Source: Chitinophaga pinensis (lineage in GTDB: Bacteria > Bacteroidota > Bacteroidia > Chitinophagales > Chitinophagaceae). Taken from it: 39,853 nt of DNA. Position 1 is the first letter of the stretch, and the number at the start of each line of letters is the position of its first letter. The DNA lies in NCBI GenBank assembly GCA_943327275.2, contig CALPWM020000001.1, forward strand, positions 1 to 39,853, read 5' to 3'. The notes below the pieces were generated by a model. It was not told where the DNA came from. It was given only the letters and a program-made list of their open reading frames with translations, and did no database searches. The translations under genes were made by a program, and so were the position numbers. Of this stretch, positions 6,592-39,717 are shown piece by piece.

Positions 6592-7081
6592 CCAAAAACA
6601 GTTTGAGTTTTTTTGAAACAATGTCGTTTTCAAAACCCCGCAACAAAAGGTATTGCCGGGTCTTGGATTGCTTGACATATACCGTATTTCCAGGGCCCTT
6701 CAAAGATGTCCACTTTTTTTCAATCAGCTTCATCAATGTTTTTTCATAGGCTGGCAGATCGATTTCTTCCCTCAGGGCCTTGCTGATGCTATAGGAAGAT
6801 ACCTGTCTTTTTTTGAGCTCCATCTCAATTTTTTTTCGACCCCATTGCTTGATCCTGAACTTTCCACCCACAAAAGCAGCCGCAAATCTCTCTTCATTCA
6901 AAAACCCCTCTTCAATCAGCTTGGACAAGAGCGGGTTGGCATCTGCCCAGGAAATGCCATAGCTGGAAAGCTTCATCTTGACCTCCTGGTGTGACCTTTC
7001 CTGAAAGGCACAAAAATGGCGGATCTTGACATAGGCCTGTTCGGGCGTCAACACCTTCCGCTTAAAACTGTATTCCTCCAT
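6557..7081 (-). CDS. recX: Regulatory protein RecX
   Basis: FCAFQERSHQEV, LIEEGFLNEERFA, WGRKKIEMELKKR and YLLLRGFE are RecX three-helix-repeat motifs. Start MEEYSF at 7081 (alternative 7099). Confidence 0.9.
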   Translation of the reverse strand: MEEYSFKRKVLTPEQAYVKIRHFCAFQERSHQEVKMKLSSYGISWADANPLLSKLIEEGFLNEERFAAAFVGGKFRIKQWGRKKIEMELKKRQVSSYSISKALREEIDLPAYEKTLMKLIEKKWTSLKGPGNTVYVKQSKTRQYLLLRGFENDIVSKKLKLFLDGQADHNNDTD

Positions 7082-7098
7082 TGTTGGCAAATTAATCA

Positions 7099-7138
7099 TT
7101 AACCACAGTCCTCGGGGTGGTTTTCAACATTATTCACT
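7099..7138 (+). promoter_or_regulatory. Three degenerate DnaA-box-like 9-mers in the recX/dnaN divergent promoter region
   Basis: TTAACCACA (7099-7107), TTTTCAACA (7121-7129), TTATTCACT (7130-7138); each is 1 mismatch from TTWTNCACA and all share one orientation. Confidence 0.45.
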
Positions 7139-7193
7139 GTTTTTTTATCGAAAATGTCAGAAAATTTTGCCCATTTTATACGCCGGTTGCGAC

Positions 7194-7201
7194 TATATTT
7201 G
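7194..7201 (+). promoter_or_regulatory. Bacteroidota sigma-A -7 element for dnaN
   Basis: TATATTTG matches TAnnTTTG, 23 nt upstream of the dnaN ATG. Confidence 0.6.
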
Positions 7202-7224
7202 CCTGATACAAACAAGGATAGCAT

Positions 7225-8337: not shown

Positions 8338-8349
8338 AAAACAATTGAT

Positions 8350-9171
8350 ATGGATGCGTTGATCTCCTATTTCAGCGATCTTGAAAAAAGACCCCTCGAA
8401 AGAGCGGGTTTTTTTATAGCCGGCATGGTCTTTTTGTGGATCGTTGAAAATGCGATACCCCTGCTTCAATCCGATTACAAAAAAAGCAAGGGCCGGCATG
8501 CTGCCACCAACATCGCTTTCACGGCCATTCACTTCATCATTCACACCTTGCTTGCTGGGGGCATCGTCTTCATCGCCGGCTGGACGAATGAGCACCAGTT
8601 CGGACTGATCCACTGGTTTAAGCTGAGTCCTTTAGCGCTGATCATCACCACCTGCCTGGTCCTGGATTTTTTTGCAGGATGGCTTTGTCATTTTGTAGAA
8701 CACCAGGTGCCGCTGTTCTGGCGTTTTCACATCATCCACCATGCAGACAACAACGTGGACGTAACCACCGGCCTTCGCCATCACCCTCTAGAATCGGTTT
8801 GGCGTGGTGTCTTTTTCTATATTGGGATCTTCGTGGCGGGGACGCCCATGTTTGCTGTATTGTTATACCAGACAGCCCTTGTTTTCATTACGGGATTCAC
8901 GCATGCCAACATCAGCCTGCCGAAGTGGCTAGACAAAACACTGAGCTGGCTCCTGGTTTCTCCCAACATGCACAAAGTGCATCACCACTGGAAACAACCC
9001 TACACCGACAGCAACTATGGTGCCGTGTTTTCGATCTGGGACAGGTTGTTGGGTACGTTCATGAAACTTGATCCTTCAAAGATCCGTTATGGCCTTGACC
9101 AATACTATCCGAACGAAAAGGACGAGGATTTTGTCAGGCTCCTGAAAAGACCATTTCAAAAATTAAAATAA
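8350..9171 (+). CDS. Sterol desaturase / fatty acid hydroxylase family membrane protein
   Basis: His boxes HFVEH, HIIHH, RHHPLE, HAN, HKVHH, then NYG...WDRLLGT; multiple TM segments. Confidence 0.9.
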   Translation: MDALISYFSDLEKRPLERAGFFIAGMVFLWIVENAIPLLQSDYKKSKGRHAATNIAFTAIHFIIHTLLAGGIVFIAGWTNEHQFGLIHWFKLSPLALIITTCLVLDFFAGWLCHFVEHQVPLFWRFHIIHHADNNVDVTTGLRHHPLESVWRGVFFYIGIFVAGTPMFAVLLYQTALVFITGFTHANISLPKWLDKTLSWLLVSPNMHKVHHHWKQPYTDSNYGAVFSIWDRLLGTFMKLDPSKIRYGLDQYYPNEKDEDFVRLLKRPFQKLK

Positions 9172-9173
9172 CA

Positions 9174-9911
9174 GTGAAAAATATTGCTGTCATTCCCGCG
9201 CGCTTTGCCGCCAGTCGTTTTCCAGGAAAACTAATGCAAAGGATTGGTGAAAAAACCATCATCAGGATGGTCTACGAAAACGCAGTAGCCATGAATCTTT
9301 TTGATGAGGTATTGGTTGTTACTGATAGTGATGAGATCATGAACGAGATTGTTGCTGCTGGCGGGGCTGTGAAAAAAAGCACCAAAGACCACCAGAGCGG
9401 AAGCGACAGGATAGCAGAAGCCATTCAATCAATGGATGTTGATGTGGTGGTGAACATTCAGGGCGATGAGCCTTTTGTTGAAAAAGAACCACTCCAGGAT
9501 CTGCTGAACTGTTTCAAAGATCCTGCCGTAGCCGTTGCCTCCGTCATGAAAAGGTTTGGAGAAGGGGATGAGCCCGAAAACCCGAACCAGGTGAAGGTGG
9601 TTTGCAACAGGAACAACGATGCGCTTTATTTCAGCCGCTCACCGATTCCTTTCAAGCGGAACCGCAGCGCGGATCTGCCCTATTTTAAACATGTCGGGGT
9701 GTATGCTTACAGAAAAGAAACCCTGCTGAGTTTTACACAATGGCCCATGGGCGCACTGGAACAAACCGAAATGCTTGAGCAATTGAGGTATCTTGAAAAC
9801 GGGGTTGCCATTAGGATGGTAGAAACAAAAACAAGTAGCATTGGCATTGATACACCAGAAGATCTTGAAAGAGCCAGGGTTGAATACAAGTCTTCGCTGA
9901 AAGGGTTTTAG
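9174..9911 (+). CDS. kdsB: 3-deoxy-manno-octulosonate cytidylyltransferase (CMP-Kdo synthetase)
   Basis: IPARFAASRFPGK, SGSDR, NIQGDEP, ALYFSRSPIP, HVGVYAY, LEQLR, IDTPEDL; GTG start. Confidence 0.96.
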   Translation: MKNIAVIPARFAASRFPGKLMQRIGEKTIIRMVYENAVAMNLFDEVLVVTDSDEIMNEIVAAGGAVKKSTKDHQSGSDRIAEAIQSMDVDVVVNIQGDEPFVEKEPLQDLLNCFKDPAVAVASVMKRFGEGDEPENPNQVKVVCNRNNDALYFSRSPIPFKRNRSADLPYFKHVGVYAYRKETLLSFTQWPMGALEQTEMLEQLRYLENGVAIRMVETKTSSIGIDTPEDLERARVEYKSSLKGF

Positions 9912-10420
9912 GCTTTTTCTTTTCTTTTATAGACCGGAACCGTGCTACACGGCTCGCCGTACATGAGCGATTTGACCACGGGCAAGAGTTTGATGGATAT
10001 TGCTGCATAGGCATACTCGGGCACAGGTTTTTCTCCACAACCCTTTACCACAACCCGCTTTCCTTCAAATGCTGCCGCATTGACCTCTTTGATGTTTTCG
10101 ATAAATATTTGTTTAAAGGCCTCTTCTGGGGTTCCAGAGATGATCGATCTGGCGATTCCGGAAAGCTTTGATACAACCAGCATATAGGCCCACACGGGAA
10201 CAATGGCGTCGGTTGAACAATACACGGCCACATCTCTGTTCTCGTATTGGCTCCAATCATGATGATCAAGGGCCTCCCTAAAATCTTTCTCCTTGAGCAG
10301 CATTTCCATAAAAAGGAAATTTTTCAAATCGAAAGGCATTGGCTCCGCAGAAGGGTAATATTTTTCAAGTTCGATGGTGATCAACCCGCTTTCTGCCACC
10401 TTGTTCCTGATTTCTTCCAT
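9908..10420 (-). CDS. DUF2480 family protein (conserved Bacteroidota hypothetical)
   Basis: EEIRNKVAESGLITI, LKEKDFRE, CSTDAIVPVWAYML, KGCG, SLMYGEPCSTVP. Confidence 0.85.
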   Translation of the reverse strand: MEEIRNKVAESGLITIELEKYYPSAEPMPFDLKNFLFMEMLLKEKDFREALDHHDWSQYENRDVAVYCSTDAIVPVWAYMLVVSKLSGIARSIISGTPEEAFKQIFIENIKEVNAAAFEGKRVVVKGCGEKPVPEYAYAAISIKLLPVVKSLMYGEPCSTVPVYKRKEKA

Positions 10421-10443
10421 GATGCAAAGTTACCAAAAATGCA

Positions 10444-10467
10444 ACAGCCACCCTCGGGGGCGGCTGT
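10444..10467 (-). terminator. Probable intrinsic terminator of the PpiD-like gene
   Basis: Minus-strand RNA ACAGCCGCCC-CCGA-GGGUGGCUGU forms a 10-bp stem with one G-U pair, followed by UGCAUUUUU, about 30 nt after the stop codon. Confidence 0.6.
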
Positions 10468-10496
10468 GCGTTTGTTTTCTCATGAGCAGTATGTCA

Positions 10497-12620
10497 TCAG
10501 TATCCGGCGTCCCTTCTTTTATCAACGATTTTCATTGATTTTTTCAAAGACTCCATCGTGCTGTATCCTGCGAATTGCTTCATTTGTGACTCAAGTGCCT
10601 TTTTTTGACCAACAAAATCAATTGTTGATGAAGGAAGGGCGCCAACCTGGTTCACTTTAATATAGTATACACCATTTTGACCGTCAATCACGTCTGATGT
10701 ATTAGACAAGTTCTTTTTGTTAAACGCTGCACCAATTACTTTTGTTTCTGAACCAAGGTTGGGAACAAAAGGATCGGCAAACCTGACCGTGTCTGTTCTT
10801 CCGGTTGTTCCACCAAGCAAAGCAGCCAATTTATCCAGGTTTTTCTCAGATCCAGCCTTTTGGGCCACCATTTCTGCCTTTTTCTTGTTCCTAAGGGTTG
10901 GTTCTACCAATACCCTTGCAACCGATGCCGGCTGAACACCCTCTTTGATTTCATTGGTAACCATGGCTACCACATATTGGTCTTTGAGGTCGAATGGCTC
11001 AGAAACCGCTCCTGTTTTGTTTTCAAATATCCATTTTACGATAGCCCTTGAAGAAAGTGGGCCAGCGCTGTAATCAAGCTCTTTGATGTTGTCTGCTGTC
11101 AACTTGTTGATCTTCATTTTTGCAACGGTTTCGTCAAAAGACTTCTGGTCCCTGCTGCTTCCAACAAATTGTGTTGCGGAGGAAGAGGCTGAAGCGTCAG
11201 TTTCTTCACTGGCAACAATTGGCTTGGCCAGATAAGCAACCTTGTAGGCCTCTTCGAAATTTTTCTGGTTCAATACTTCAATGATATGGTAGCCGAACTC
11301 GGTTTTCACCACCTCCATGCTTCCTTTGGGTTTGTTGAAAATGAAGTCTGCAAATTCTTTTGCCAGGTTCATGTCAACAGAAGAGAAGTCATACTCACCG
11401 CCTTTGGCCTTGCTTCCTTGGTCATCGCTCAGGGCTGCTGCCAAAGCACCAAAGTTTCCGCCAGATTTGATTACGGCATAAATGCTGTCAATGCTCTTTT
11501 TGGCTGCGCTATCGCTACGCCTTTGCTGACCAGTTTGAGGATCAACAATTCCCACAAGGATGTGTCTGCACTTTACAGAGTCGGGCAATGATTTTGTTTG
11601 TATTTTTTTCGCGATCACATAGCTTCCTCCATCGAGGTAAGGACCCGCAACTGCACCAACCGGCAATGATATGATCGTATCCTTGGCGCCCATTTGGAGT
11701 TTTGACTTGAGAGCAAATCCATCAAAAAATGGAAGAGAAGTATTGTTTCTTGTAACAAAGCTTTTTGCATCTGGCGCTGTATAGAATGCGGCCTTCAGTT
11801 CATTGAGCTGGTTGTAAACCCTTGCGGAGTCCTGTGGTGTTGGGTTTGCGCTGAATGAAACATAGGCGATGCTTTTTACATGCTCCTGCTTAAATTCATC
11901 CTTGTGTTTTGACACATAATCACTGATTTCGCTGTCGCTCACTTTAATGGTGCTGTCTGAGATGGTGGTGTAAGGAATACCCACAAACGATATTGAAGCA
12001 AAAGAAGCGTTATCTGCTGCCATTTTCTCAAGCATCCACTTGGGAACATAAGAGCCCTGTGTAATCAGAGAAGTATATTTCTGAGAGAGCAGGTTGATGC
12101 CAATGGGCTTGATCAATTGCTCTTCTATATTCAAAGCATCTTCGGGTTTTGAGCTTTTTTTGACATTGGTTAACCAGTTTTTCGCAGCATTCACATCATA
12201 CGCTCCGGTGGTTCTGTCCGCAAACATTTGCTTAAACTCCTGTGGGGCATCATCAGAAAACAACACTGCACCCAATTCTTTGGGAGTAACTGCCAATCCG
12301 AGTTTAGCAGCTTCGCCGTTGATCATTTCTTCCTGCACATATGAGTTCCAAACATTTTCAACAATTGTTTGGGTCATCATTTCGTTGGTTTGCATGCCCT
12401 GAGAACGATAGTTTTGTTCGACCATGTTCACCTTCTTGCTGAAATCAACCAACTCAACGTCTTTTCCATTGATAGATCCTGCTGTTGTGGGTTGTCCATC
12501 AAACATGCTTCCACCCTTGCCAATAAATGCATCCTGAACCAAAAAGCCAATCAAGCTGATCGCGATCATTGTGGTAAGCAACACTGCTGCCTTGTCCCTA
12601 ATTTTCTGAATAATTGACAT
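10497..12620 (-). CDS. Membrane-anchored periplasmic peptidyl-prolyl isomerase/chaperone (PpiD/SurA-like)
   Basis: Start reassigned to MSIIQKIRDK (ATG at 12620); N-terminal TM, SurA_N-like region, parvulin motifs VKCRHILV, SDDQGSKAKGG, VKTEFGYHII. Confidence 0.9.
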   Translation of the reverse strand: MSIIQKIRDKAAVLLTTMIAISLIGFLVQDAFIGKGGSMFDGQPTTAGSINGKDVELVDFSKKVNMVEQNYRSQGMQTNEMMTQTIVENVWNSYVQEEMINGEAAKLGLAVTPKELGAVLFSDDAPQEFKQMFADRTTGAYDVNAAKNWLTNVKKSSKPEDALNIEEQLIKPIGINLLSQKYTSLITQGSYVPKWMLEKMAADNASFASISFVGIPYTTISDSTIKVSDSEISDYVSKHKDEFKQEHVKSIAYVSFSANPTPQDSARVYNQLNELKAAFYTAPDAKSFVTRNNTSLPFFDGFALKSKLQMGAKDTIISLPVGAVAGPYLDGGSYVIAKKIQTKSLPDSVKCRHILVGIVDPQTGQQRRSDSAAKKSIDSIYAVIKSGGNFGALAAALSDDQGSKAKGGEYDFSSVDMNLAKEFADFIFNKPKGSMEVVKTEFGYHIIEVLNQKNFEEAYKVAYLAKPIVASEETDASASSSATQFVGSSRDQKSFDETVAKMKINKLTADNIKELDYSAGPLSSRAIVKWIFENKTGAVSEPFDLKDQYVVAMVTNEIKEGVQPASVARVLVEPTLRNKKKAEMVAQKAGSEKNLDKLAALLGGTTGRTDTVRFADPFVPNLGSETKVIGAAFNKKNLSNTSDVIDGQNGVYYIKVNQVGALPSSTIDFVGQKKALESQMKQFAGYSTMESLKKSMKIVDKRRDAGY

Positions 12621-12666
12621 ACTATATATATTATTATAAGAGTTGGCAAAAATAGGGTAAAAATGG

Positions 12667-13130
12667 TTATTAACAAATTGTGGAAAACGCGCCGGGCCTA
12701 AGAAAATTATATGGCTTGTTGGCTGTTCAGGGAAATTTTTTGGTTTTCCACACCACCCTGTTGATATCCTGTTTTTTATGTGGATTACTGGCCTTTTTAT
12801 GAATTGAATTTGGGGATTGTTTTGAATAAGTTTGGGGATTAAATTCAATTTGAGGCTTTTAGGTTTTTTTACAACAATTTACCCTTGCTTTATCCACAGG
12901 ATTTTTTGTTATTTCTCATTGTTGAAAAATTTAATTTGATTTTTTTTGGATTGTTAATAGCATTGATTTGAATCAGTCTTGGTAGCCATATTGATCATGT
13001 GTATAAATGTGGATTGGTGTTAATTCATGTGTTTATAGATAGAATAAAAATTAATAAATAATAGTTTTAAACATTTCCACAGCCTTAATAGTAATAGTGT
13101 CTTTTATAAATAATAGATAATTATAAATAC
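12667..13130. other. Putative chromosomal replication origin (oriC): DnaA-box cluster, DnaA-trio-like repeats and AT-rich unwinding element
   Basis: Perfect TTATCCACA at 12890-12898; TTWTNCACA matches at 12679-12687(-), 12744-12752(+), 12998-13006(-); near-matches at 12667, 12779, 13008. Ends in TTTTAAACA-TTTCCACA-GCC-TTAATAGTAATAGTG-TCTTTTATAAATAATAGATAATTATAAATA (13065-13129). Non-coding 576-bp gap; dnaN, mnmG and parS sites are nearby. Confidence 0.78.
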
Positions 13131-13196
13131 TACAAAGGATATTAACATTAAAAAAGACCTGATGAATTCAATAGAATATTCTGTAATTTTCAACCG

Positions 13197-13808
13197 ATGA
13201 AAAAAATAAAGAATATCATTTTTGATCTGGGTGGAGTGTTGATTGATTGGAATCCAGAATACATGTATAAAAAGATTATCGCAGATGATAACGAAAGAAA
13301 AGATTTTTTAGAAAATATCTGTACCATGTCGTGGAATGAAGAACAGGATGGAGGAAGAAGTATTCAAGAAGCCAATGATTTACTCATTTCATTATACCCC
13401 GATAAGAGCGATTATATACTCGCTTTTTATCAGCGGTGGGAAGAAATGCTCAACGGCCCTATTGAGGGCACTGTTGAGGTTCTAAGGCAGCTTAAATCAA
13501 ATAATAAACACAATATCTATGCGCTAACCAATTGGAGTGCTGAAACCTTCCCTCGTGCTTTAGAATTATTTGATTTTTTACATTGGTTTGATGGTCGCAT
13601 TGTTTCTGGAGAAGAAAATACAAGAAAACCATTTCGGGAAATCTATGAGTTAACCCTTAGCCGATTTAGTCTTGACGTTTCTGAAACTATATTTATTGAT
13701 GATAACATCAGAAATATAAAAGCTGCTGAAGAATGTGGTATCCAAAGTATCCATTTTCAATCTCCAGATCTGCTTATCAATGAATTAAAAAAACTTGAAG
13801 TTATTTAA
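13197..13808 (+). CDS. HAD-superfamily hydrolase/phosphatase
   Basis: Motif I IIFDLGGVLID, motif II LTN, motif III KP, motif IV FIDD...NI. Confidence 0.92.
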   Translation: MKKIKNIIFDLGGVLIDWNPEYMYKKIIADDNERKDFLENICTMSWNEEQDGGRSIQEANDLLISLYPDKSDYILAFYQRWEEMLNGPIEGTVEVLRQLKSNNKHNIYALTNWSAETFPRALELFDFLHWFDGRIVSGEENTRKPFREIYELTLSRFSLDVSETIFIDDNIRNIKAAEECGIQSIHFQSPDLLINELKKLEVI

Positions 13809-18368: not shown

Positions 18369-19424
18369 TTATTGATACACAGATACTGCAAAGTTATCAG
18401 ACTCGATTATTTCTCCTATGTGCATTGTTCTATCTGATAAACCATTTTGTTCTAGTGCTTCAATAACATCTTTAACAGCATCTTTGGATACAGATATTAA
18501 CAAACCTCCGCTGGTCTGAGGGTCTGCCAAAATGTTTTTTTGTAATATTTGGTTTTGACCATCATGAAAATGGACCTTGTGTCCATAACTATCCCAATTT
18601 CTGTTTGTTCCTCCGGGCACCGATCCCATTTCAACATATTCAATCAACCGATCAGAAATCAAAGGAACAGACCTGAAGTTTATTTTAGCCGAATATCCGC
18701 TTCCTTCAGCCATTTCAATGAGGTGCCCCAATAGCCCAAAACCAGTTACATCTGTCATTGCATGAACCCCCTTTATTTTACCCATGATAGAACCAATTTT
18801 ATTCAATTCCATCATTTGGTCAGCTGCTAATTTCTCATCTCCATCTTTAAGCAGATTCTTTTTTTCTGCAGTTGTCAAAATTCCAACGCCTATTTTTTTG
18901 GTCAAAAACAAAATATCGCCTTTTTGGGCTGTATTGTTCTGTTTCAAATGTGTAATGTTGACCAACCCATTAACCGCCAGACCAAAAATAGGTTCTGGTG
19001 AATCAATGCTGTGTCCTCCAGCCAAAGGAATCCCCGCTTCCAAGCAAATACTTTTGCTACCCTCTATAACCTTCCTGGCCACAAGTGGTGACAATAGGTT
19101 GATGGGCCACCCCAAGATGGCTATTGCCATGATTGGATCACCCCCCATGGCATATACATCACTGATGGCGTTGGCAGATGCAATCCTTCCAAAATTATAT
19201 GGATCATCAACAATTGGCATGAAAAAATCTGTTGTAGATATCAGTGCCGTGCCATTTTTTAAATCATATACTGCAGCATCGTCTTTGCTGTGGTTGCCAA
19301 CAATCAAACGATCATTGTCTGGCATGCTAAAACTTGAATGCAATATCTCATCTAATATTTTCGGGGATATTTTACACCCACAACCAGCTCCATGCGAGTA
19401 TTGCGTCAGTTTAATTTCTTCCAT
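18369..19424 (-). CDS. selD: Selenide, water dikinase (selenophosphate synthetase), Cys form
   Basis: [72 protein letters not shown]. Confidence 0.97.
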
Positions 19425-20472
19425 TGTTGATTTTTATTATTTCTCTTGCATTTTCTATGTCTTTTACAGAATCTGCTGATACCGTTATAATATTTGGCTT
19501 TGGCTCTTTCCTGTTTTCAAGTCCTTTTCTGTACTGCTTATCATAGTATTTTAGCAAGACTTCAAAACAGCCATGAATATTTTTTTCTTCAAGTGCCGCA
19601 ATGGCAGTTTTGGTCTCTAGGCCCCCAAGTCTTTTTTTTATCCTAAGTATAGCATCTCTCAGCGCCACCCAATCAAGTGTACCATATGTTTCTACTAAAT
19701 ATTTTAATCTTGAAGAAAACGGAATATCCAAGAAAACAATTTCGCATGTTCTCATGTGCACCCACATACTTTGTGGGATGTTTACTGTACCAATACGCTG
19801 GCTTTCATCTTCTAGCCATATTTTTTGATTCGGATATTTTTCTTGTTCTGTTCTAATTGCTATGGCCAGTTTGTTTTCAAACATTTCTTGGCTGGGTTGT
19901 TTGGGTAATCCAATATTGCCAAACGCGGAGCCCTTATGGCCTGCCAGGCCTTCAAGATCAACAACAGCTTCGTTGCTGTTTTTAAGCGACTGTAACACAA
20001 TTGTTTTTCCCGAACCCGTATTTCCCCCCAATATTTGGAAAGGATGATTTTTGCTCAATTCGTTGATTACCCAGTTCCTGAATGATTTATATCCGCCAAT
20101 TAGTGTATATACTTTGAAGCCATATAAATCAAGCAACCAGGCAACAGCAGCACTCCTCATTCCCCCCCTCCAACAATGAACCAAGACTGTTTTATCATCA
20201 GGATCTTTCTCCTTGATCAGACCCTCTGCCGTTAAAAGCATTTCTTTCATCTTGGGACCAAAAAAATCAAGCCCCTTTTTTATAGCCTCTTCCCTTGATT
20301 GTTGTTTATAGATGGTTCCAACAATAGCGCGCTCCTCATCGTTGAAAAGAGGAATAGACGAGGCTCCTGTAATATGTGCATGTGCATATTCTGCATTGCT
20401 TCTTACGTCAATGACAGTATGCTTTTGAGATAGTTGAACAAACTGTTCAACAGGGATTTTTTCTATTCCCAT
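19411..20472 (-). CDS. mnmH: tRNA 2-selenouridine(34) synthase (SelU/MnmH)
   Basis: Rhodanese domain IDVRS...HCWRGGMRS; P-loop GNTGSGKT; [26 protein letters not shown]; overlaps selD by 14 bp. Confidence 0.95.
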
Positions 20473-31916: not shown

Positions 31917-32564
31917 ATGACAACACTGAACCCCAAAGCGCTGATTGACATATTTCCATTGTTTGATCTTCCGCTGGCAACATTTTTGCATGAGCACGGC
32001 GAAAGCAAAACATTTGAGCAGGGTTCAATACTGATGAAGCCCGGACAGTTTTTCAAATATGCCATGCTCATTGTAAGTGGCAGGGTAAAACTCTATCGCG
32101 AGGGAGAAGATGGTGAAGAGTTTTTCATGTATTTTTTGGAAAGCGGAAACGCTTGTGCACTCAGCATGATGTGCATGGCCCGCAGCCAGACCAGTACTAT
32201 CATGGCGGTTGCCCTTGAAGAAACTGAGGTCATCATGATTCCGATTCAATACATGGATACACTGATGAAAAACTACAGCGCCTGGTACCACTTTGTGATT
32301 GAAACCTACCGGAATAGGTTTGAAGAATTGCTTACTGTTGTAGACCAGATCGCTTTCAAAAACATGGATGAGCGTTTGGAGTGGTACCTGAAAAGACAAG
32401 CAAAATCCCTGGGCAACAACCTCATGCTAACGCATCAACAAATAGCACATGATATCAACTCTTCCAGAGAAGTGGTTTCCAGGCTCCTTAAAAAAATGGA
32501 AAAGACCGGCCTGGTTTCAATGGAGCGCAACAGCATTGTTTGGATGGGAGAGGAGCTTGAATAA
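31917..32564 (+). CDS. Crp/Fnr family transcriptional regulator
   Basis: cNMP-fold SGRVKLY...G.E and HTH LTHQQIAHDINSSREVVSRLLK; CALSMMC cysteine pair in the sensor domain. Confidence 0.93.
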   Translation: MTTLNPKALIDIFPLFDLPLATFLHEHGESKTFEQGSILMKPGQFFKYAMLIVSGRVKLYREGEDGEEFFMYFLESGNACALSMMCMARSQTSTIMAVALEETEVIMIPIQYMDTLMKNYSAWYHFVIETYRNRFEELLTVVDQIAFKNMDERLEWYLKRQAKSLGNNLMLTHQQIAHDINSSREVVSRLLKKMEKTGLVSMERNSIVWMGEELE

Positions 32565-32576
32565 AACCTCCTTCCG

Positions 32577-32592
32577 TGTGATAAATATCACG
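32577..32592. promoter_or_regulatory. CRP-type operator upstream of the yeeE/yedE pair
   Basis: TGTGA-TAAATA-TCACG (1 mismatch to TGTGA-N6-TCACA), 21 nt before GAATTTTG (32614-32621). Confidence 0.72.
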
Positions 32593-32658
32593 TTCAGATA
32601 AAATAAGTTTACTGAATTTTGTTTCACTCTTGTCAAGAGACAAGATTAAAAATACACG

Positions 32659-33228
32659 ATGACAATTATTGAACTGATCAAACAACCCTGGCCATGGTAT
32701 GTGGCTGGACCCATCATTGGATTGATGGTACCAACACTATTAATTTTTGGTAACAAAACATTTGGTATTTCATCATCATTGCGCCATGTATGCGCAGCAT
32801 GTTTGCCTGCCAAGATTCCATTTTTTCAGTACGATTGGAAAAAAGAAATCTGGAACTTGTTTTTTGTATTTGGCATTTTTCTTGGCGGCATCATTACGGC
32901 TATCTATTTTAAAAATGATGCAGCCGTAGTTGTTGATTCAAACCTTGTCGCGGAACTATCGGGGTATGGCATTGCTGATTTCAGCGGATTGGTTCCTGCT
33001 GATATTTTCAGTTGGGCTTCACTTGCTACACCAAGGGGTTTTATCCTGATGGTGATTGGCGGATTTCTTGTTGGTTTTGGTACACGGTATGCTGGTGGTT
33101 GTACTTCGGGTCACGCCATCATGGGCTTGTCAAATCTTCAGCTTCCCTCATTGATTGCTACGATTTCTTTCATGGCCGGGGGTTTCATCATGGCAAATCT
33201 TATTCTTCCATTTATCCTTTCATTGTAA
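32659..33228 (+). CDS. YeeE/YedE family sulfur-compound transporter subunit (short form)
   Basis: WPWYVAGPIIG, FGISSS, GGFLVGFGTRYAGGCTSGH; about 4 TM segments. Confidence 0.9.
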   Translation: MTIIELIKQPWPWYVAGPIIGLMVPTLLIFGNKTFGISSSLRHVCAACLPAKIPFFQYDWKKEIWNLFFVFGIFLGGIITAIYFKNDAAVVVDSNLVAELSGYGIADFSGLVPADIFSWASLATPRGFILMVIGGFLVGFGTRYAGGCTSGHAIMGLSNLQLPSLIATISFMAGGFIMANLILPFILSL

Positions 33229-33240
33229 AAATCTACGATC

Positions 33241-33744
33241 ATGACAATAAATAAAAAATATAACAATACTGATTTTGAAGTAAGGTCGTTGGATGCCATT
33301 TGCAAAAATCAAGAAACTGTAGAAACCCCCATGTGGCATAACGTTAAATACCTTTTATTTGGTATTGCATTTGGCATTGTATTGATCAAGTCTGAAGTGG
33401 TTTCATGGTTCCGCATACAAGAAATGTTCAGGCTCCAAAGTTTTCACATGTTCGGTGTGATTGGTTCAGCAGTTGTTGTTGGAGCACTGTCCGTTTTTCT
33501 CATCAAGAAATTAAAGATCAAATCAATCCAAGGCGAAGAAATCATTCTTCCTGAAAAAACTTTTAACAAAGGACAGATTTATGGTGGATTGATTTTTGGA
33601 TTTGGATGGGCAATGACGGGAGCCTGCCCCGGTCCTTTGTTTGCTCAATTGGGATATGGTGCAATGGCAACAGCGGTAACCATTTTGATGGCCATAGCTG
33701 GTACATGGGTATATGGCCTGATCAGAGAAAAACTTCCTGCATAA
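33241..33744 (+). CDS. YeeE/YedE family sulfur-compound transporter subunit (short form, partner)
   Basis: GIAFGIVL, RIQEMF, GGLIFGFGWAMTGACPGP. Confidence 0.9.
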   Translation: MTINKKYNNTDFEVRSLDAICKNQETVETPMWHNVKYLLFGIAFGIVLIKSEVVSWFRIQEMFRLQSFHMFGVIGSAVVVGALSVFLIKKLKIKSIQGEEIILPEKTFNKGQIYGGLIFGFGWAMTGACPGPLFAQLGYGAMATAVTILMAIAGTWVYGLIREKLPA

Positions 33745-33760
33745 ATCAAGAACATTTATT

Positions 33761-35569
33761 TTACCTGAACTCATATCCGAATCCCATCAATTGGGTCAGC
33801 AGAGAATTCGGTGCATCGGTTGCAGTGCAACGACCTTCAAGTTTTGGTGCAATGGGAGAATTCACTTTTAAATATTCTTCAATAACACTGTGCAATGTAG
33901 CGCCCAGTCTCTTGGGATTTTTAACGCCTTCAACACGACAAATCGTTGTGTCGGGATCTCCCTCGCGTTCGCAGGCAACGAAGCTGTATGTTTTTTCAAG
34001 GTCCAGGGCTTGGTTGGCCACCTTGATCCAGTTGACTCTTTTTCCCGCATCGTTTCCAATGGTGAAGTTGACTTCCACTCCTTTGAAACGCACCACCCAT
34101 CCACCAAAGCGCTTGGCAGGATCTTTGGCAAATGCATTTTGTAATTCTTTCTCCATCCAATCCCAAAGTTGTTTTCCGGTGATGAATCCTTTTTTCGCTT
34201 CGCTATCAACCGGTAACATGTTCCACAAATAATCAACCGTGATGATGGCTTCGCCTGTTGCAGGATCTGGTACAAGCGGTGGACAAAAACGGAAACCATT
34301 GCTCAGGGCAATGTCTGGTTTGAACTTCCACATGATCGCATCGGTGATGAAATTATCCATTGGCGTTTCAATCACGTAGTAACGCATCAATGGTGTTTTC
34401 GATTTTCCGATAACACGGTTCAATTCTTTTTTATAAGGCTCACGTGCTTTCTCTACCAATCGTTTCATTTCCTCGTCCTGCTTGTACACAAGCGGATCAA
34501 CATCCATCAGTTGATACGTATGGTCTTTGACGATTCCGTTCTCAACAACGATATCCAGTTTTGCAATGAACGATCCGAACGCACCGGGTTCTGTTACTTT
34601 TGTATGTACACCTTGTATAGGCGTTCTGACGCGCTCATGTGTATCTGCACCCAAAATATAATCAACGCCTTTTACTTGCGGCAGATTGGCCAAGCCCACT
34701 TGTTGTGCCAAGCCCATGTGTGTAAGGAGAAAAACCATATCACACAATTCATACTCCTTCAGGATTTTTATATATTTTGAAACATTGAGCTCCGGCGTGG
34801 TAAACTTGATGCCATCGCTGTAAGCAGGAGATTGGCGCTTGGGTGTAAGCGGATCATTGTATCCGATAAACCCAATTTTGATGCCAGCAATATGTTTTAT
34901 AAAATAAGGTGGAAAGATGAGGTCTCCCTTCATTTCGTCTTGGGTATCGTGGAACATGTTGGCACATACTTTTACTCCGTCGTATGCGAACATGTCTTTC
35001 ATCATCATTTCCTTTCCATACACCACTTCCCAGTTGCCCGGCAACATGATGTCATATCCTATATTGTTCATGAGTGGAACAATGGCCCTGCCTTTGCTCA
35101 TGGCAGCAACGCCGCTTCCCTGAAAACAATCGCCACCATCAATCAACAACGTGTTGGATTTGTTTTGGTTGCGAATGGTATTGATCATGGATTTCATTGT
35201 GGCAAATCCCCCCCGTTTTTTAAAAACAGGTTTTCCATTTTCCATGAAAAACTCATCGTGTACCATGAGTTGTGAATGGATGTCTGCCGTATGCAGCAGT
35301 GTCAACTTTGTGGCTTTCCCATCAAGAACAGCCTTGTTGTTGGACATGGATTTTTCCTTGTAGGCAGATTCTTCGTTGTTGAGCGCTGATGCTGCAACGG
35401 GTGATCCAATCAGTCCGCCTCCGATACCGAGACCTAATCCCAGCTTTGTTGATCTTCTTAGAAAATCCCTTCTGCTGTTTTCAGAAAGCGCAACATGTAA
35501 TTCTTTTTCTGCCTTGCTGATGGAGACTGCATGACAAGCGTTGCAGGAGCAATTTTTTGTATGAGACAT
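33761..35569 (-). CDS. Tat-exported SoxB-like dimetal hydrolase (5'-nucleotidase superfamily; putative thiosulfohydrolase)
   Basis: Tat motif SRRDFLR; metal motifs HTADIHSQ, DGGDCFQGS, PGNWE (Trp as in SoxB GHWE, not the nucleotidase GNHE), LTHMG, GADTHE; SoxB-like C-terminus SNGFRF...NAFAKDPAKRFGGWVVR; sulfur gene context. Confidence 0.75.
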   Translation of the reverse strand: MSHTKNCSCNACHAVSISKAEKELHVALSENSRRDFLRRSTKLGLGLGIGGGLIGSPVAASALNNEESAYKEKSMSNNKAVLDGKATKLTLLHTADIHSQLMVHDEFFMENGKPVFKKRGGFATMKSMINTIRNQNKSNTLLIDGGDCFQGSGVAAMSKGRAIVPLMNNIGYDIMLPGNWEVVYGKEMMMKDMFAYDGVKVCANMFHDTQDEMKGDLIFPPYFIKHIAGIKIGFIGYNDPLTPKRQSPAYSDGIKFTTPELNVSKYIKILKEYELCDMVFLLTHMGLAQQVGLANLPQVKGVDYILGADTHERVRTPIQGVHTKVTEPGAFGSFIAKLDIVVENGIVKDHTYQLMDVDPLVYKQDEEMKRLVEKAREPYKKELNRVIGKSKTPLMRYYVIETPMDNFITDAIMWKFKPDIALSNGFRFCPPLVPDPATGEAIITVDYLWNMLPVDSEAKKGFITGKQLWDWMEKELQNAFAKDPAKRFGGWVVRFKGVEVNFTIGNDAGKRVNWIKVANQALDLEKTYSFVACEREGDPDTTICRVEGVKNPKRLGATLHSVIEEYLKVNSPIAPKLEGRCTATDAPNSLLTQLMGFGYEFR

Positions 35570-35580
35570 GGTTGCGTTTT

Positions 35581-36558
35581 TTATTTTCTTGCATCAATGA
35601 TGGGCTTGAACGGGCCGAACTTGTGTTGTTGTTCATTAAAGCCATCTGTATAGGGACCGAATGGGTGATCAATCGGTTTCTTTGAAACATTGGGCCAATC
35701 TTTGCTCAGGTCTTTGGTGGGGCGGGGCCTGGAATTCACAAAGGCAGCTACATCCCAACTTTCTTCATCAGTTAAAACCGGGGCTCGGTGTGTTGCCTGA
35801 TTAAGGGGCATGTTGTCGCGCACATATCCCGCGAAGCGGGAAAGGCGAAACAAACCTGCGCCAATATTATAACTGTGTTCTCCCCAGAGCGGAGGATAGG
35901 TATATGATTTTGCATCTGCTGCCATCAGCCCTTCGCCATTGGCGCCATGGCAGCTCTGGCATTTTGCAGTATAAACGACCTGGCCTTTTTCCGGACTGGC
36001 TGCACGATCAAGGTACTCGGGAGGTTTAATGCCAGAGCCTTTCGGGATGCTGTCTTTGGGAACTTGATATCCAACCCATTTGATGTAAGCAATCATCGCT
36101 TTCATTTCGCGGCTGTTGCTATCAAGGGCGCTGCCGTTCAGGCTTCTTTCCATGCAATCGCTCACCCTTTTATAAACTGTTTCGATGGTTCCGCTCCTGT
36201 CACGAAACTTCGGATAGTTGGCGGCAACAGCTCCGTAATTGTTGCCCCATGTTTTTCTTCCTGCGTTGAGGTGACAGTTCTGGCAATTCATGCCGTTCGT
36301 GACATGTGCCACGGAACCATTGGGTCCTAAGTATCTGGATGTATTGGCAATTAGTTCTTCACCATAAATCACCAGCGCTCTCTCTTCACCCTGCACAGAC
36401 CTGTCAGTGAACAAACTTGGGGCCGTCCATCCTTCAGCAACGAGTGCGGGCATTTCCCTTTCTGGCTTGTTGACAAATTCAATGGTTTTAACGGAGATGG
36501 CCAGCACCAGTGCAATGGTTATTGAATAGATGATCCAGTTTTGTTTCGAATTGTTCAT
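35581..36558 (-). CDS. tsdA: Diheme c-type cytochrome, thiosulfate dehydrogenase/tetrathionate reductase (TsdA) family
   Basis: Two CxxCH motifs (CQNCH, CQSCH), YPKFR, RVSDCMERSLNG carrying the catalytic heme-1 Cys, PPLWG..SYNIGAG, NMP heme-2 ligand loop; N-terminal membrane anchor. Confidence 0.82.
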   Translation of the reverse strand: MNNSKQNWIIYSITIALVLAISVKTIEFVNKPEREMPALVAEGWTAPSLFTDRSVQGEERALVIYGEELIANTSRYLGPNGSVAHVTNGMNCQNCHLNAGRKTWGNNYGAVAANYPKFRDRSGTIETVYKRVSDCMERSLNGSALDSNSREMKAMIAYIKWVGYQVPKDSIPKGSGIKPPEYLDRAASPEKGQVVYTAKCQSCHGANGEGLMAADAKSYTYPPLWGEHSYNIGAGLFRLSRFAGYVRDNMPLNQATHRAPVLTDEESWDVAAFVNSRPRPTKDLSKDWPNVSKKPIDHPFGPYTDGFNEQQHKFGPFKPIIDARK

Positions 36559-36607
36559 TTCCTCTTCTTATGGTGAACTAAATATAAATCAATTCGAAAG
36601 GATGATA

Positions 36608-36623
36608 TGTGATTTTGGTCACA
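36608..36623. promoter_or_regulatory. CRP-type operator upstream of the tsdA / soxB-like operon
   Basis: Perfect TGTGA-TTTTGG-TCACA, 21 nt before minus-strand TATATTTA (36586-36579). Confidence 0.78.
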
Positions 36624-36626
36624 TGG

Positions 36627-37379
36627 TCAATGCATTTCATTGCCATATTCCTTAATGATGGCCTTGTTAAGTGATTCCCCAATTTTTCTTAATTCGATAA
36701 GCTTGGCGTTCAAGTAGCGGTTGGTATTTAGTCCAATGGAAACAAGGTTTAGCAATTCGTTGAGGGCGGCCTTATTTTTCTGGGTAATGTCATCTGCCTT
36801 GGCGGGCGGCTGAAACCGCATGATTCCCTCTATTTGGTTGATAGACATTTCATATAGAATAACCGCATCCATCACTTCTGCCATTTTGAAACGTCCTTTT
36901 TCAAGTGTTCTTTCCCGCAGCTCCTCTAGTTTGTCGATGGAGCTCAGCATGCGTTCATATTCCTGAATTCCCGAACTGATTGTCTTATTTCTGACCATCC
37001 TTAATCCACCGGCTGATTTGATCTGATCAAATCCAATACGAGAACTTTCGAATGTAGACCGCAGGGCCAAGTTTCGGACATAATAATAAACCTCTTCGTT
37101 GGTGATGGATTGATTGTTCTTTTTTTGAAATAGCGTGTCGAGAGCTTTTAGTCGTGTCTCATTGGATCGCACTACATTATCACAGGATTGAAAATCAAGC
37201 AGTAAATCTTCATGCACATTTTTCAGGTAAGAGATTTCCCTGTGTTTTTCAATTTGCGTTTCGCGAAGATTTTCTGCGAAAAATCCAAGGGTGACAGCTG
37301 CAAACAACATCACGAACTCTGTGATGTATTCCTTCCATGCTTTTTTATGCGTGGGATGGTGGGGGTGATGAACTTCCAT
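36627..37379 (-). CDS. Hypothetical single-pass membrane protein with His-rich N-terminus (MEVHH type)
   Basis: MEVHHPHHPTHKKAWKEYITEFVMLFAAVTLGFFAENLRE followed by a helical domain; start reassigned to 37379. Confidence 0.8.
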   Translation of the reverse strand: MEVHHPHHPTHKKAWKEYITEFVMLFAAVTLGFFAENLRETQIEKHREISYLKNVHEDLLLDFQSCDNVVRSNETRLKALDTLFQKKNNQSITNEEVYYYVRNLALRSTFESSRIGFDQIKSAGGLRMVRNKTISSGIQEYERMLSSIDKLEELRERTLEKGRFKMAEVMDAVILYEMSINQIEGIMRFQPPAKADDITQKNKAALNELLNLVSIGLNTNRYLNAKLIELRKIGESLNKAIIKEYGNEMH

Positions 37380-37539
37380 TTTTTGAAATATAAGCGCCTT
37401 AAAGATAAGATTGATATTTCTCCTAATCAAATGCCAACTAAATATTATTGACCATGAATCATTCGGTTAATGAAATAGAAAACGCACTAAAAATAAACCG
37501 AAACGCGGCACATATGGTTTAACCGCTCAGCATGGTAAT

Positions 37540-39200: not shown

Positions 39201-39354
39201 GTTTGTTTTTTTAAGATTATCACACAATATACAATCCGTGTCCCCTCTGAAAACTAGTCTAGTTCATTGATTCGGGTGATTGGCATCACAGAAAAACATA
39301 GAGAAGTATAATGTTGTTGTTCATTTTGATGCTTAGGTTTATTTTTGTAAACAG

Positions 39355-39717
39355 ATGAACAACCCAGCAGCACAACAAGAGCGCATTGCCAAAATGAAAT
39401 TTTCATCTGTCTATCCTTTGTACTTCGCAAAAGTGGAGAAGAAAGGCAGGACAAAAGAAGAGCTTGACCAGGTTGTTTCCTGGCTGACCGGATTCGACAA
39501 CAATAAGGTTCAGGAGTTGATCAATGAAGGTGTGAATTTTGAAACCTTTTTCCAGCAGGCAACAATGCATCCCAATGCACACCTCATTACCGGTCTCATC
39601 TGCGGTTATCGCGTGGAAGAAATTGAGCATACACTTACACAGCAGGTTCGCTACCTCGATAAGCTCGTTGATGAACTGGCCAAAGGAAAGAAAATGGAGA
39701 AGATCCTACGCGGCTGA
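39355..39717 (+). CDS. DUF2200 family protein
   Basis: FSSVYPLYFAKVEKKGRTKEE, WLTG, ITGLICGYRVEEI, RYLDKLVDELAKGK. Confidence 0.88.
   Translation: MNNPAAQQERIAKMKFSSVYPLYFAKVEKKGRTKEELDQVVSWLTGFDNNKVQELINEGVNFETFFQQATMHPNAHLITGLICGYRVEEIEHTLTQQVRYLDKLVDELAKGKKMEKILRG

What the first reader, a model, noticed from the sequence alone, without database searches (positions are those of the whole stretch)
31917..36623. Self-contained TsdA + SoxB-like + YeeE/YedE + Crp thiosulfate/tetrathionate module without soxXAYZ in a Bacteroidota genome
Seen: two convergent units whose stop codons are 16 bp apart. One is Crp/Fnr followed by two Cys-bearing YeeE/YedE proteins (GGCTSGH, GACPGP). The other is a TsdA-type diheme cytochrome followed 11 bp later by a Tat-exported SoxB-like hydrolase. 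No SoxY, SoxZ, SoxA, SoxX or TsdB is in the window. Established: TsdA interconverts thiosulfate and tetrathionate; canonical SoxB hydrolyses a sulfonate from SoxY-bound S-thiosulfonate; YeeE/YedE proteins move thiosulfate or sulfane sulfur; a TsdA+SoxB route to zero-valent sulfur has been described in the alphaproteobacterium Erythrobacter flavus. Inference: this is a minimal, carrier-free periplasmic pathway (thiosulfate to tetrathionate to sulfate plus sulfane sulfur, the latter moved by the YeeE pair) with its own regulator, in a lineage not normally regarded as sulfur-oxidising. It is the best candidate here for an undescribed system.
Basis: partly seen in the sequence, partly recalled or inferred. 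Interest (0 to 1): 0.82.

Follow-up and report, generated by a model that had tools for sequence, protein, structure and literature searches.

The report
Carrier-free thiosulfate oxidation in freshwater Bacteroidota
A freshwater Bacteroidota genome carries a thiosulfate dehydrogenase gene next to a SoxB-related hydrolase gene and a sulfur-transporter gene pair, with no Sox carrier genes found, and these likely oxidise thiosulfate through tetrathionate by a route already shown genetically in Erythrobacter flavus, so this is a further member of a known pathway and not a new system.

Summary
All five genes, motifs and spacings are as described. The cytochrome is a TsdA. The hydrolase is neither a 5'-nucleotidase nor a canonical SoxB. 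It lies in a sister clade to SoxB, in a strongly supported 7-row group with the counterpart of E. flavus D0Y83_01365 (42% identity), the gene whose deletion blocked tetrathionate-to-sulfur conversion. SoxY/SoxZ were not found in this 79%-complete genome. SoxY was also not found in 60 relatives or in 17 near-complete Bacteroidota genomes with the hydrolase. TsdA adjoins the hydrolase in 28 of 36 same-genus genomes. The module is not self-contained: CRP-type boxes at a fixed 21-base spacing link tsdA and yeeE to persulfide dioxygenase/rhodanese/TauE genes elsewhere in the genome, and weaker boxes precede sqr and a DUF2200 gene. It is not undescribed: Zhang 2020 showed the route and listed two Bacteroidetes with TsdA+SoxB and no soxYZ. 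This scan reported the same module on at least six other DNA stretches. Activity is untested. What stays open and useful: a Tat-exported, cysteine-bearing subtype, near-core in one freshwater genus, with an apparently unstudied Crp regulator. Verdict: new member of a known kind.

The parts
35581..36558 (-). tsdA: diheme c-type thiosulfate dehydrogenase/tetrathionate reductase family protein, 325 aa, with one N-terminal hydrophobic segment (anchor or signal)
   Evidence: PF21342 + PF00034; best PDB hits A. vinosum TsdA, E 3e-42; CxxCH at 92-96 and 200-204, Cys135 in the DCxERS motif, and Asn249-Met250 invariant in 59 of 59 homologues
33761..35569 (-). SoxB-like di-metal hydrolase, 602 aa, twin-arginine signal preceded by a CxCxxC n-region
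   Evidence: TIGR04486 264 bits, cut-off 550; best PDB sequence and fold hits are T. thermophilus SoxB; motifs DIH, DGGD, GNWE, TH, DTH, NGFRFC; tree position
32659..33228 (+). half-size YeeE/YedE protein matching the C-terminal half of PF04143 (PmpA-like); GGCTSGH plus a CxxC
   Evidence: C45, C48 and C148 invariant in 44 of 44; half-size classification from PMC11582611 passages
33241..33744 (+). half-size YeeE/YedE protein (DUF6691) matching the N-terminal half of PF04143 (PmpB-like); GACPGP
   Evidence: C129 invariant in 48 of 48
31917..32564 (+). Crp/Fnr-family regulator with an SREVVSR recognition helix and two conserved cysteines (C80, C86); directly follows mnmG
   Evidence: R184, E185 and R189 invariant in 22 of 22, C80 in 20 of 22, C86 in 18 of 22
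36608..36623 (.). perfect TGTGA-N6-TCACA box, 49 bases upstream of tsdA; a -7-like TATATTTA follows 21 bases after it on the minus strand (36586-36579)
   Evidence: box with at most 1 mismatch within 150 bp upstream of tsdA in 16 of 55 related loci, 15 of them 46-53 bases from the start
32577..32621 (+). TGTGA-N6-TCACG box (32577-32592) and -7-like GAATTTTG (32614-32621), 21 bases apart, upstream of the yeeE pair
   Evidence: box with at most 1 mismatch upstream of the first yeeE in 24 of 41 related loci, against 0 of 10 for mnmG
39275..39290 (.). weaker palindromic box upstream of the DUF2200 gene (39355-39717); possible further regulon member
   Evidence: score 13.9, no -7 element at the usual spacing

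Best explanation
This is likely the periplasmic arm of a Crp-controlled sulfur-oxidation regulon in a heterotrophic freshwater Chitinophagaceae, in which TsdA is predicted to oxidise thiosulfate to tetrathionate and the SoxB-like hydrolase is predicted to split sulfate from tetrathionate without a SoxYZ carrier, as in Erythrobacter flavus. The sulfane sulfur left over would be imported by the YeeE half-pair. It would then be oxidised by the persulfide dioxygenase-rhodanese proteins encoded on contigs C30/C311, with sulfite leaving through TauE. SQR (C161) would feed sulfide into the same loop, so thiosulfate may be partly home-made. Electrons from TsdA would reach the aerobic chain through an unidentified cytochrome, since no TsdB was found. 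Shown here: the genes, motifs, tree position, co-occurrence, lack of Sox matches, and boxes. Inferred: every activity, the direction of flux, transport, and binding of this Crp to the boxes.
For: (1) TsdA catalytic and heme-ligand residues are invariant in 59 of 59 homologues. (2) The hydrolase has Trp180 where SoxB has the Trp mutated to Cys in the SoxB-SoxYZ cross-linked structure 4UWQ, and where nucleotidases have the GNH(E/D) His. It lacks the nucleotidase xDFL/YxxGGDGY stretch. The genome encodes a separate protein with nucleotidase-type GNHD on C201. (3) Tree: canonical SoxB plus the SoxB-like clade form one branch apart from nucleotidases (100/99), and the window protein sits in a 7-row clade (100/98) with the D0Y83_01365 counterpart, 42% identity over 430 aa against about 29% to Paracoccus SoxB. 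That counterpart is assigned by three of four published soxB knock-out primer sites mapping around it on metagenome locus L114. (4) In E. flavus, deleting that gene made tetrathionate accumulate and abolished sulfur formation (PMC7608252). (5) Same genus: hydrolase in 30 of 36 genomes, TsdA in 28 of 36, and all 28 have them side by side. Phylum sample: 17 of 400 genomes have the orthologue (47% identity or more); 15 of these have a TsdA domain, against 43 of the other 297 genomes outside the two SoxY-bearing families; 0 of 17 have SoxY, while the same search found SoxY in 44 other genomes. (6) In 80 related loci the neighbours are TsdA 62, YeeE halves 43 and 46, TauE 40, PDO-rhodanese 38, OprD porin 32, DsrE 24, Crp 21. 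(7) A matrix trained on other genomes ranks the boxes before tauE/pdo, yeeE and tsdA first to third genome-wide, each with a -7-like element 21 bases on. (8) Half-size YedE1E2 pairs import zero-valent sulfur for PDO (PMC10812762 passages).
Against: There is no biochemical test of any member on tetrathionate in the papers found; the E. flavus assignment is genetic, and two paralogues there were dispensable. The window enzyme differs from the E. flavus counterpart in export route (Tat against a Sec-type signal) and has RFC against RYG after the substrate arginine. L114 is a metagenomic relative of E. flavus 21-3, not the strain; its gene is frameshifted, and one of four primer sites did not map near it. 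Two SoxB metal-site positions are changed (His to Asn179, His to Asp309; alignment, ligand roles recalled). Seven of 39 full-context loci have no TsdA within about 8 kb, and one closed genome (G273) with the Sec-type orthologue gave no TsdA match. A YeeE match was missing in 2 of 5 hydrolase-bearing genomes tested. The genome is 79% complete. Related genomes are not independent. In the window alone the box count does not exceed chance (3 found, 25 of 100 shuffles reach 3).
Confidence: 0.65

Rival explanations
1. The hydrolase does not act on free tetrathionate but on thiol-bound S-thiosulfonates (protein or low-molecular-weight) that tetrathionate forms. A substitute carrier is used: the periplasmic one-cysteine DsrE, a rhodanese, or the enzyme's own Cys429. 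The module would then be a SoxYZ-free but still carrier-based route, or a repair system for tetrathionate damage.
For: Canonical SoxB works on cysteine-bound substrates and prefers sulfane-extended ones (PMC5336275 passages). Cys429 directly follows the Arg-aromatic pair and is present in 78 of 78 close homologues and in 15 of 17 phylum-wide orthologues. DsrE with an invariant Cys (24 of 24) and a signal-like N-terminus is a frequent neighbour, also in the Erythrobacter-type locus.
Against: The E. flavus counterpart and the Sec/lipoprotein subtype have Gly at the Cys429 position. Deleting D0Y83_01360, which maps by primers to the DsrE gene, did not stop sulfur formation. DsrE is near the hydrolase in only 24 of 80 loci. 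The distance of Cys429 from the metals was not measured.
Confidence: 0.17
2. The module runs reductively or for assimilation: TsdA reduces tetrathionate to thiosulfate, and the YeeE pair imports thiosulfate or sulfane sulfur as a sulfur source.
For: TsdA can be bifunctional (PMC7608252 discussion). The window protein has Asn where wild-type A. vinosum TsdA has Lys before the heme-2 Met; that the tetrathionate-reducing C. jejuni TsdA also has Asn there is recalled. Full-length YeeE (TsuA) imports thiosulfate for assimilation.
Against: Boxed partner genes are oxidative or detoxifying (PDO, TauE, SQR-like). No cysteine-synthesis genes recur among the neighbours. The YeeE proteins are the half-size type, shown to import zero-valent sulfur, whereas thiosulfate uptake is ascribed to full-length YedE3. 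A reductive TsdA leaves no role for the tightly linked hydrolase.
Confidence: 0.08
3. The hydrolase is an ordinary periplasmic 5'-nucleotidase or phosphoesterase that happens to lie next to tsdA.
For: Pfam gives only Metallophos + 5_nucleotid_C. The SoxB model score is under half its cut-off. RefSeq names the relatives 'bifunctional metallophosphatase/5'-nucleotidase'. The fold is shared with nucleotidases at similar TM-scores (0.81 against 0.79).
Against: The catalytic GNH His is replaced by Trp and the base-binding stretch is missing. The tree separates it from nucleotidases. It is adjacent to tsdA in 28 of 28 same-genus genomes that have both. Relatives in all six SoxY-less plasmid neighbourhoods of other taxa opened, and the Bradyrhizobium one, sit among sulfur-handling genes.
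Confidence: 0.04
4. The genome has a complete Sox system in the unassembled 21%, and this is its displaced soxB.
For: The genome is 79% complete, in 325 contigs.
Against: SoxY was found in 0 of 61 genomes, including 42 at 90% completeness or better. SoxY and SoxZ were not found in closed genomes G046 and G096, which carry the tsdA-hydrolase pair. The protein lacks the roughly 40-residue insertion shared by all six canonical SoxBs aligned.
Confidence: 0.02

Closest known systems
Erythrobacter flavus 21-3 TsdA-SoxB-SdoA/SdoB thiosulfate oxidation pathway (Zhang et al. 2020, PMC7608252; follow-up PMC9426585)
   Same: TsdA plus a SoxB-like hydrolase of the same subfamily (PGNW, xDTHER, SNGFR motifs; 42% identity to the D0Y83_01365 counterpart), no soxYZ found, persulfide dioxygenases encoded, and DsrE in the same regulon or locus.
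   Different: No TsdB or cbb3-type genes beside tsdA. TsdA has a single N-terminal hydrophobic segment and is directly coupled to the hydrolase gene. Tat export with a CxCxxC n-region, Cys429 after the Arg-aromatic pair, one hydrolase instead of three, a Crp-type regulator with TGTGA-N6-TCACA boxes, and near-core presence in a freshwater genus.
Canonical SoxB thiosulfohydrolase of the Kelly-Friedrich Sox pathway (TIGR04486; T. thermophilus 2WDC/4UWQ)
   Same: Two-domain di-metal fold (best Foldseek hit, TM 0.81), Tat signal, Trp after the metal-binding residue, Arg flanked by hydrophobic/aromatic residues.
   Different: 264 of 550 bits; sister clade in the tree; lacks the SoxB-specific insertion; AFPY tyrosine and second Arg of YRRG not kept; Asn and Asp at two His positions; no SoxXA, SoxYZ or SoxCD found.
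TsdA thiosulfate dehydrogenase (A. vinosum 4WQ7/4V2K; M. purpuratum TsdBA 5LO9)
   Same: Two CxxCH motifs, active-site Cys in DCxERS, PPLWG and NMP motifs.
   Different: Asn instead of Lys before the heme-2 Met; an extra conserved C-terminal tail with two invariant His (298, 312); no TsdB found.
Half-size YeeE/YedE pairs PmpAB (Serratia) and YedE1E2 (Cupriavidus; PMC10812762)
   Same: Two adjacent half-size proteins matching the two halves of PF04143, each with the conserved Cys motif, co-occurring with PDO.
   Different: Longer (189 and 167 aa against about 130-140); the first carries an extra invariant CxxC.
UshA/5'-nucleotidase family
   Same: Fold and N-terminal metal motifs; an Arg at the position of SoxB's substrate Arg.
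   Different: No GNH(E/D) histidine, no GGDGY base-binding stretch, and a separate branch in the tree.

Membership tests
E. flavus-type TsdA-SoxB pathway | tsdA present with intact heme and Cys ligands | tested here: met
E. flavus-type TsdA-SoxB pathway | hydrolase of the same subfamily as the validated D0Y83_01365 | tested here: met
   7-row clade 100/98 and 42% identity, using the primer-mapped counterpart on L114 and not the strain's own sequence
E. flavus-type TsdA-SoxB pathway | no SoxYZ/SoxXA in the genome | tested here: met
   not found in G000 (79% complete) nor in closed relatives carrying the pair
E. flavus-type TsdA-SoxB pathway | persulfide (sulfur) dioxygenase for the downstream step | tested here: met
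   two MBL-rhodanese proteins on C30/C311; PDO function is by family assignment
E. flavus-type TsdA-SoxB pathway | thiosulfate converted to tetrathionate, sulfate and zero-valent sulfur in vivo | not testable with these tools
   needs cultures and knock-outs
Canonical SoxB (TIGR04486) | score above the equivalog cut-off of 550 bits | tested here: not met
   264 bits; Paracoccus SoxB scores 861
Canonical SoxB (TIGR04486) | falls inside the SoxB clade and has the SoxB-specific insertion | tested here: not met
   sister clade; insertion absent
Canonical SoxB (TIGR04486) | Trp at the substrate channel in place of the nucleotidase His | tested here: met
   W180, 78 of 78
Canonical SoxB (TIGR04486) | SoxYZ partner encoded | tested here: not met
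UshA/5'-nucleotidase | GNH(E/D) catalytic His and C-terminal base-binding motif | tested here: not met
   GNWE; motif replaced by ACEREGD; roles of these residues recalled
TsdA | diheme, His/Cys heme 1 and His/Met heme 2, closer to TsdA than to SoxA | tested here: met
   all 5 PDB hits are TsdA/TsdBA; TIGR04484 SoxA 33 bits against cut-off 110
TsdA | direction of catalysis (oxidation versus reduction) | not testable with these tools
   needs enzyme assay
PmpAB/YedE1E2 half-size sulfur importer | adjacent pair covering both halves of PF04143, each with its conserved Cys | tested here: met
PmpAB/YedE1E2 half-size sulfur importer | imports zero-valent sulfur | not testable with these tools
   shown for Cupriavidus and Sinorhizobium pairs only
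CRP-type activator regulon | palindromic box at a fixed distance from the promoter element of target genes | tested here: met
   70 spacings of 21-22 bases among 77 training sites; top three genome-wide hits are the sulfur genes
CRP-type activator regulon | this Crp binds the boxes and responds to a sulfur species | not testable with these tools
   needs EMSA or reporter assays

The most novel reading that the evidence does not exclude
The Tat-exported, RFC-motif subfamily is a stand-alone neutral-pH tetrathionate hydrolase that uses its own Cys429 as a built-in sulfane carrier in place of SoxY. Together with TsdA, the YeeE pair, PDO and SQR under a cysteine-bearing Crp sensor, it lets a widespread genus of small-genome freshwater heterotrophs oxidise sulfide and thiosulfate fully to sulfate without any Sox system. 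Standard soxB models would miss it, because it is annotated as a 5'-nucleotidase.
Probability: 0.15. Interest if true: 0.7.

Novelty: new member of a known kind. Interest (0 to 1): 0.36.

Why it matters
Tetrathionate hydrolases have been purified only from acidophiles (PMC10859504 passages), and the E. flavus 'SoxB' step rests on knock-outs. This subfamily is therefore a direct candidate for the neutral-pH tetrathionate-splitting enzyme, and cultured carriers exist (Flavihumibacter and Chryseotalea strains; Runella slithyformis plasmid). The genes are near-core in one freshwater Chitinophagaceae genus (30 of 36 genomes) and score under the SoxB cut-off, so surveys that rely on canonical soxB would miss this capacity in lake and river heterotrophs. 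The pathway concept itself is published, so the gain is in scope, enzymology and regulation.

Tried and rejected
(1) The primary SoxB structure papers (Sauve 2009, Grabarczyk 2015) were not held. SoxB residue roles beyond what the 2WDC/4UWQ alignment shows are therefore recalled, and the loss of a SoxYZ docking surface was not tested. (2) The first tree of 81 rows did not finish. One search used 54 of 87 collected rows and one search used 40 of 87 plus two L114 proteins. Dropped were partial or wrongly extracted ORFs (Hymenobacter gap ORF, Sulfurovum fragment, the genome's half nucleotidase) and redundant rows. Both are LG+G4 trees without the mixture model. (3) 'Cys429 as a universal built-in carrier' was rejected as a general rule, because the Sec/lipoprotein subtype and the E. 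flavus counterpart have Gly there; it is kept only in the novel case. (4) The CxCxxC n-region is not general: 75-76 of 78 close homologues but only 4 of 17 phylum-wide orthologues. (5) RNA evidence: one freshwater metatranscriptome has contigs at 90-100% identity over yeeE, tsdA and parts of the hydrolase, with little over the flanks. These are contigs, unstranded, from a run picked for holding the stretch, so I do not count them as proof of expression. The second run is probably DNA. (6) Of the 11 metagenome loci matching the E. flavus tsdA primer, 3 encoded TsdA and only L114 reached the hydrolase genes. (7) The AlphaFold model (pLDDT 93.9) could not be measured for cysteine-to-metal distances, as no coordinates were available to scripts. 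(8) No complex prediction, protein-database word search or Atlas search was run. (9) Of the two phylum-sample genomes with no TsdA-domain match, G202 shows only a TsdA C-terminal tail next to the hydrolase, with the rest unreadable, and is counted as a miss; G273 gave no match.
Full report
Observation. The convergent stops are 16 bases apart, and tsdA is 11 bases from the hydrolase. GC content is like that of the flanks. The window is contig C1 of a 2.44-Mb, 325-contig, 79%-complete assembly. The closest named relatives (92-97% identity) are mostly Chitinophagaceae MAGs whose record titles point to lakes and rivers.

The cytochrome. It matches PF21342 and PF00034 and scores far under the SoxA cut-off. 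All five PDB hits are TsdA or TsdBA, best E 3e-42. Both CxxCH motifs, Cys135 and Asn249-Met250 are invariant in 59 of 59 homologues. It is a TsdA. The direction of catalysis cannot be read from sequence. It is the only SoxA/TsdA domain in the assembly, and no small diheme gene lies beside it.

The hydrolase. Its best NCBIfam model is SoxB, at 264 bits against a cut-off of 550. Its best PDB sequence and fold matches are T. thermophilus SoxB, though nucleotidases are close behind in TM-score. It has GNWE where nucleotidases have GNH(E/D); this Trp is the position changed to Cys in the SoxB-SoxYZ cross-linked structure. It lacks both the nucleotidase GGDGY stretch and the roughly 40-residue insertion of canonical SoxB. 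In a 42-row tree (a 54-row quick tree agrees), canonical SoxB and a large SoxB-like clade are sisters, together apart from nucleotidases (100/99). The window protein is in the SoxB-like clade. Plasmid members of that clade from Runella, Pontibacter, Hymenobacter, Novosphingobium, Bosea, Bradyrhizobium, Sporosarcina and Halorarius sit beside sulfur-handling genes (variously PDO, rhodanese, TauE, YeeE, DsrE, TusA, thiol-disulfide proteins or c-type cytochromes), and RefSeq calls them nucleotidases.

Link to the validated enzyme. Zhang et al. 2020 (PMC7608252; I read main-text parts 2-5 of 7 and supplement parts 1-2 of 3) showed by deletion that E. flavus needs tsdA and D0Y83_01365 to turn thiosulfate into tetrathionate, sulfate and sulfur, with sulfur dioxygenases downstream. 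The strain's genome was not available to me. A scan with the published tsdA primer gave 11 metagenome loci, of which L114 holds the cluster. Three of four soxB knock-out primer sites map around one gene on it (0-1 mismatch), and the 01360, 01405 and 01430 primers map in the expected order. That gene's 469-aa ORF (frameshifted near its end, used as is) is 42% identical to the window hydrolase and groups with it in a 7-row clade (100/98). The dispensable 01405 counterpart is 25% identical and falls outside the SoxB-plus-SoxB-like branch. So the window enzyme belongs to the subfamily of the validated gene. It differs in having a Tat signal and RFC in place of RYG.

Absence of Sox. SoxY, SoxZ and SoxC families and the Paracoccus SoxX, Y, Z, A, C, D proteins find nothing in the assembly. 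SoxY was found in 0 of 61 genomes of the relatives set, G000 included. In a 400-genome phylum sample, SoxY was found in 44 genomes, all in two families that are probably green sulfur bacteria (inference), and in none of the 17 that carry the window-type hydrolase. SoxZ was found in 0 of 5 carriers, two of them closed.

Co-occurrence. In the genus, 30 of 36 genomes have the hydrolase and 28 have TsdA, and in all 28 the two are adjacent. In the phylum sample, 15 of 17 carriers have a TsdA domain, 10 of them within about 10 kb, against 43 of the 297 other genomes outside the SoxY-bearing families. TsdA therefore often occurs alone, while the hydrolase rarely does. In 80 loci of close homologues, TsdA is present in 62 (directly upstream in 43), both YeeE halves plus TsdA in 38, and all five genes in 14. 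Restricted to 39 loci with full flanks, the counts are 32, 21 and 7. These genomes are related, so the counts are not independent.

Not self-contained. PDO-rhodanese (38 of 80), TauE (40), OprD porin (32), DsrE (24) and rhodaneses (35) are regular neighbours elsewhere. In this genome dsrE, two pdo-rhodanese genes, tauE and a rhodanese lie on C30/C311 and an SQR-like gene on C161; no OprD match was found. Following a lead from earlier findings, I looked for CRP-type boxes. The window has a perfect box before tsdA and a one-mismatch box before yeeE. The window count alone is not above chance, but such boxes recur upstream of tsdA (16 of 55), yeeE (24 of 41) and tauE (22 of 38) in other genomes, and not upstream of mnmG (0 of 10). 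A matrix built from 77 sites of other genomes ranks the tauE/pdo, yeeE and tsdA boxes first to third in this genome, each with a -7-like element 21 bases downstream. Weaker boxes precede sqr and the DUF2200 gene, ranked among several matches inside coding sequence. The Crp has a CRP-type recognition helix and two conserved cysteines. Binding is inferred.

Mechanism. Most likely (0.65): thiosulfate, from outside or from SQR/PDO activity, is oxidised by TsdA to tetrathionate, and the hydrolase releases sulfate. The sulfane sulfur enters through the half-size YeeE pair, a type shown to import zero-valent sulfur for PDO (PMC10812762, passages; PMC11582611, passages), and is oxidised to sulfite, all under Crp control. 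Rivals are a thiol-bound substrate or substitute carrier (0.17), reductive or assimilatory use (0.08), an ordinary nucleotidase (0.04) and a hidden Sox system (0.02).

What is in print. The route is published and cited in later work (passages of PMC9426585, PMC9774590, PMC12345210, PMC10859504). Table S5 of Zhang 2020 lists Hymenobacter sp. PAMC 26554 and Maribacter sp. T28 as having TsdA and SoxB with no soxYZ. Free-substrate hydrolysis by canonical SoxB (trithionate) is cited in PMC5336275 (passages). Searches for Chitinophagaceae + thiosulfate oxidation + tsdA and for Bacteroidetes + persulfide dioxygenase + Crp + sulfane sulfur + regulator returned no papers. (listings only, apart from the papers named) showed no title on this Bacteroidota cluster or on a purified member of the subfamily. 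The library lacks most subscription papers, and supplement part 3 and figure alignments of Zhang 2020 were not seen. This scan has reported the same module on at least six other stretches and the boxes on two.

Verdict. The module is real, conserved and coherent. It is a new member of the E. flavus-type TsdA/SoxB-like pathway, embedded in a wider sulfane-sulfur regulon. Interest 0.36: the concept is known, but the enzyme is untested biochemically, the regulator appears unstudied in the papers searched, and the prevalence in a freshwater genus is notable.

Noticed in passing
window 35534-35551 (hydrolase residues 7-12): A CxCxxC motif in the n-region before the twin arginines, kept in 75-76 of 78 close homologues although neighbouring residues vary, but in only 4 of 17 phylum-wide orthologues. 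It could bind metal or sense sulfane sulfur and gate export; untested.
   Followed up: partly
window 18369-20472: Adjacent AIRS-domain and rhodanese-domain genes that look like selD and a tRNA 2-selenouridine synthase (naming from recall; Pfam hits).
   Followed up: no
window 36627-37430: A 250-267 aa ORF upstream of tsdA with no Pfam or NCBIfam match, found beside tsdA in only a few very close relatives. The tsdA box lies just after its stop.
   Followed up: partly
window 39275-39717: DUF2200 gene preceded by a palindromic box like those of the sulfur genes; possibly a further regulon member.
   Followed up: partly
window 35584-35670 (TsdA C-terminal tail): The TsdA family here has a conserved tail (DHPFGPY...QHKFGPF) with two invariant histidines (59 of 59), beyond the region aligned to A. 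vinosum TsdA.
   Followed up: no
window 33745-33760: Only 16 bases separate the two convergent units, too little for a usual terminator, so the transcripts may overlap.
   Followed up: no
L106 (Pontibacter akesuensis plasmid) 6601-13530: Three different SoxB-like/nucleotidase-like paralogues beside a TsdA-sized c-type cytochrome, mirroring the three in E. flavus, next to conjugation genes.
   Followed up: partly
L103, L105, L108, L110 (plasmids of Novosphingobium, Hymenobacter, Sporosarcina, Bradyrhizobium): A separate clade of about 480-aa SoxB-like proteins with no evident signal peptide sits in PDO/rhodanese/TauE clusters of several phyla; probably cytoplasmic S-sulfonate hydrolases, uncharacterised as far as I found.
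   Followed up: partly
L059, L068, L070, L073 (Niastella, Longitalea): Close orthologues of the hydrolase (75-79% identity) lie here with no sulfur genes within 8 kb; whether these genomes have tsdA elsewhere was not checked.
   Followed up: no
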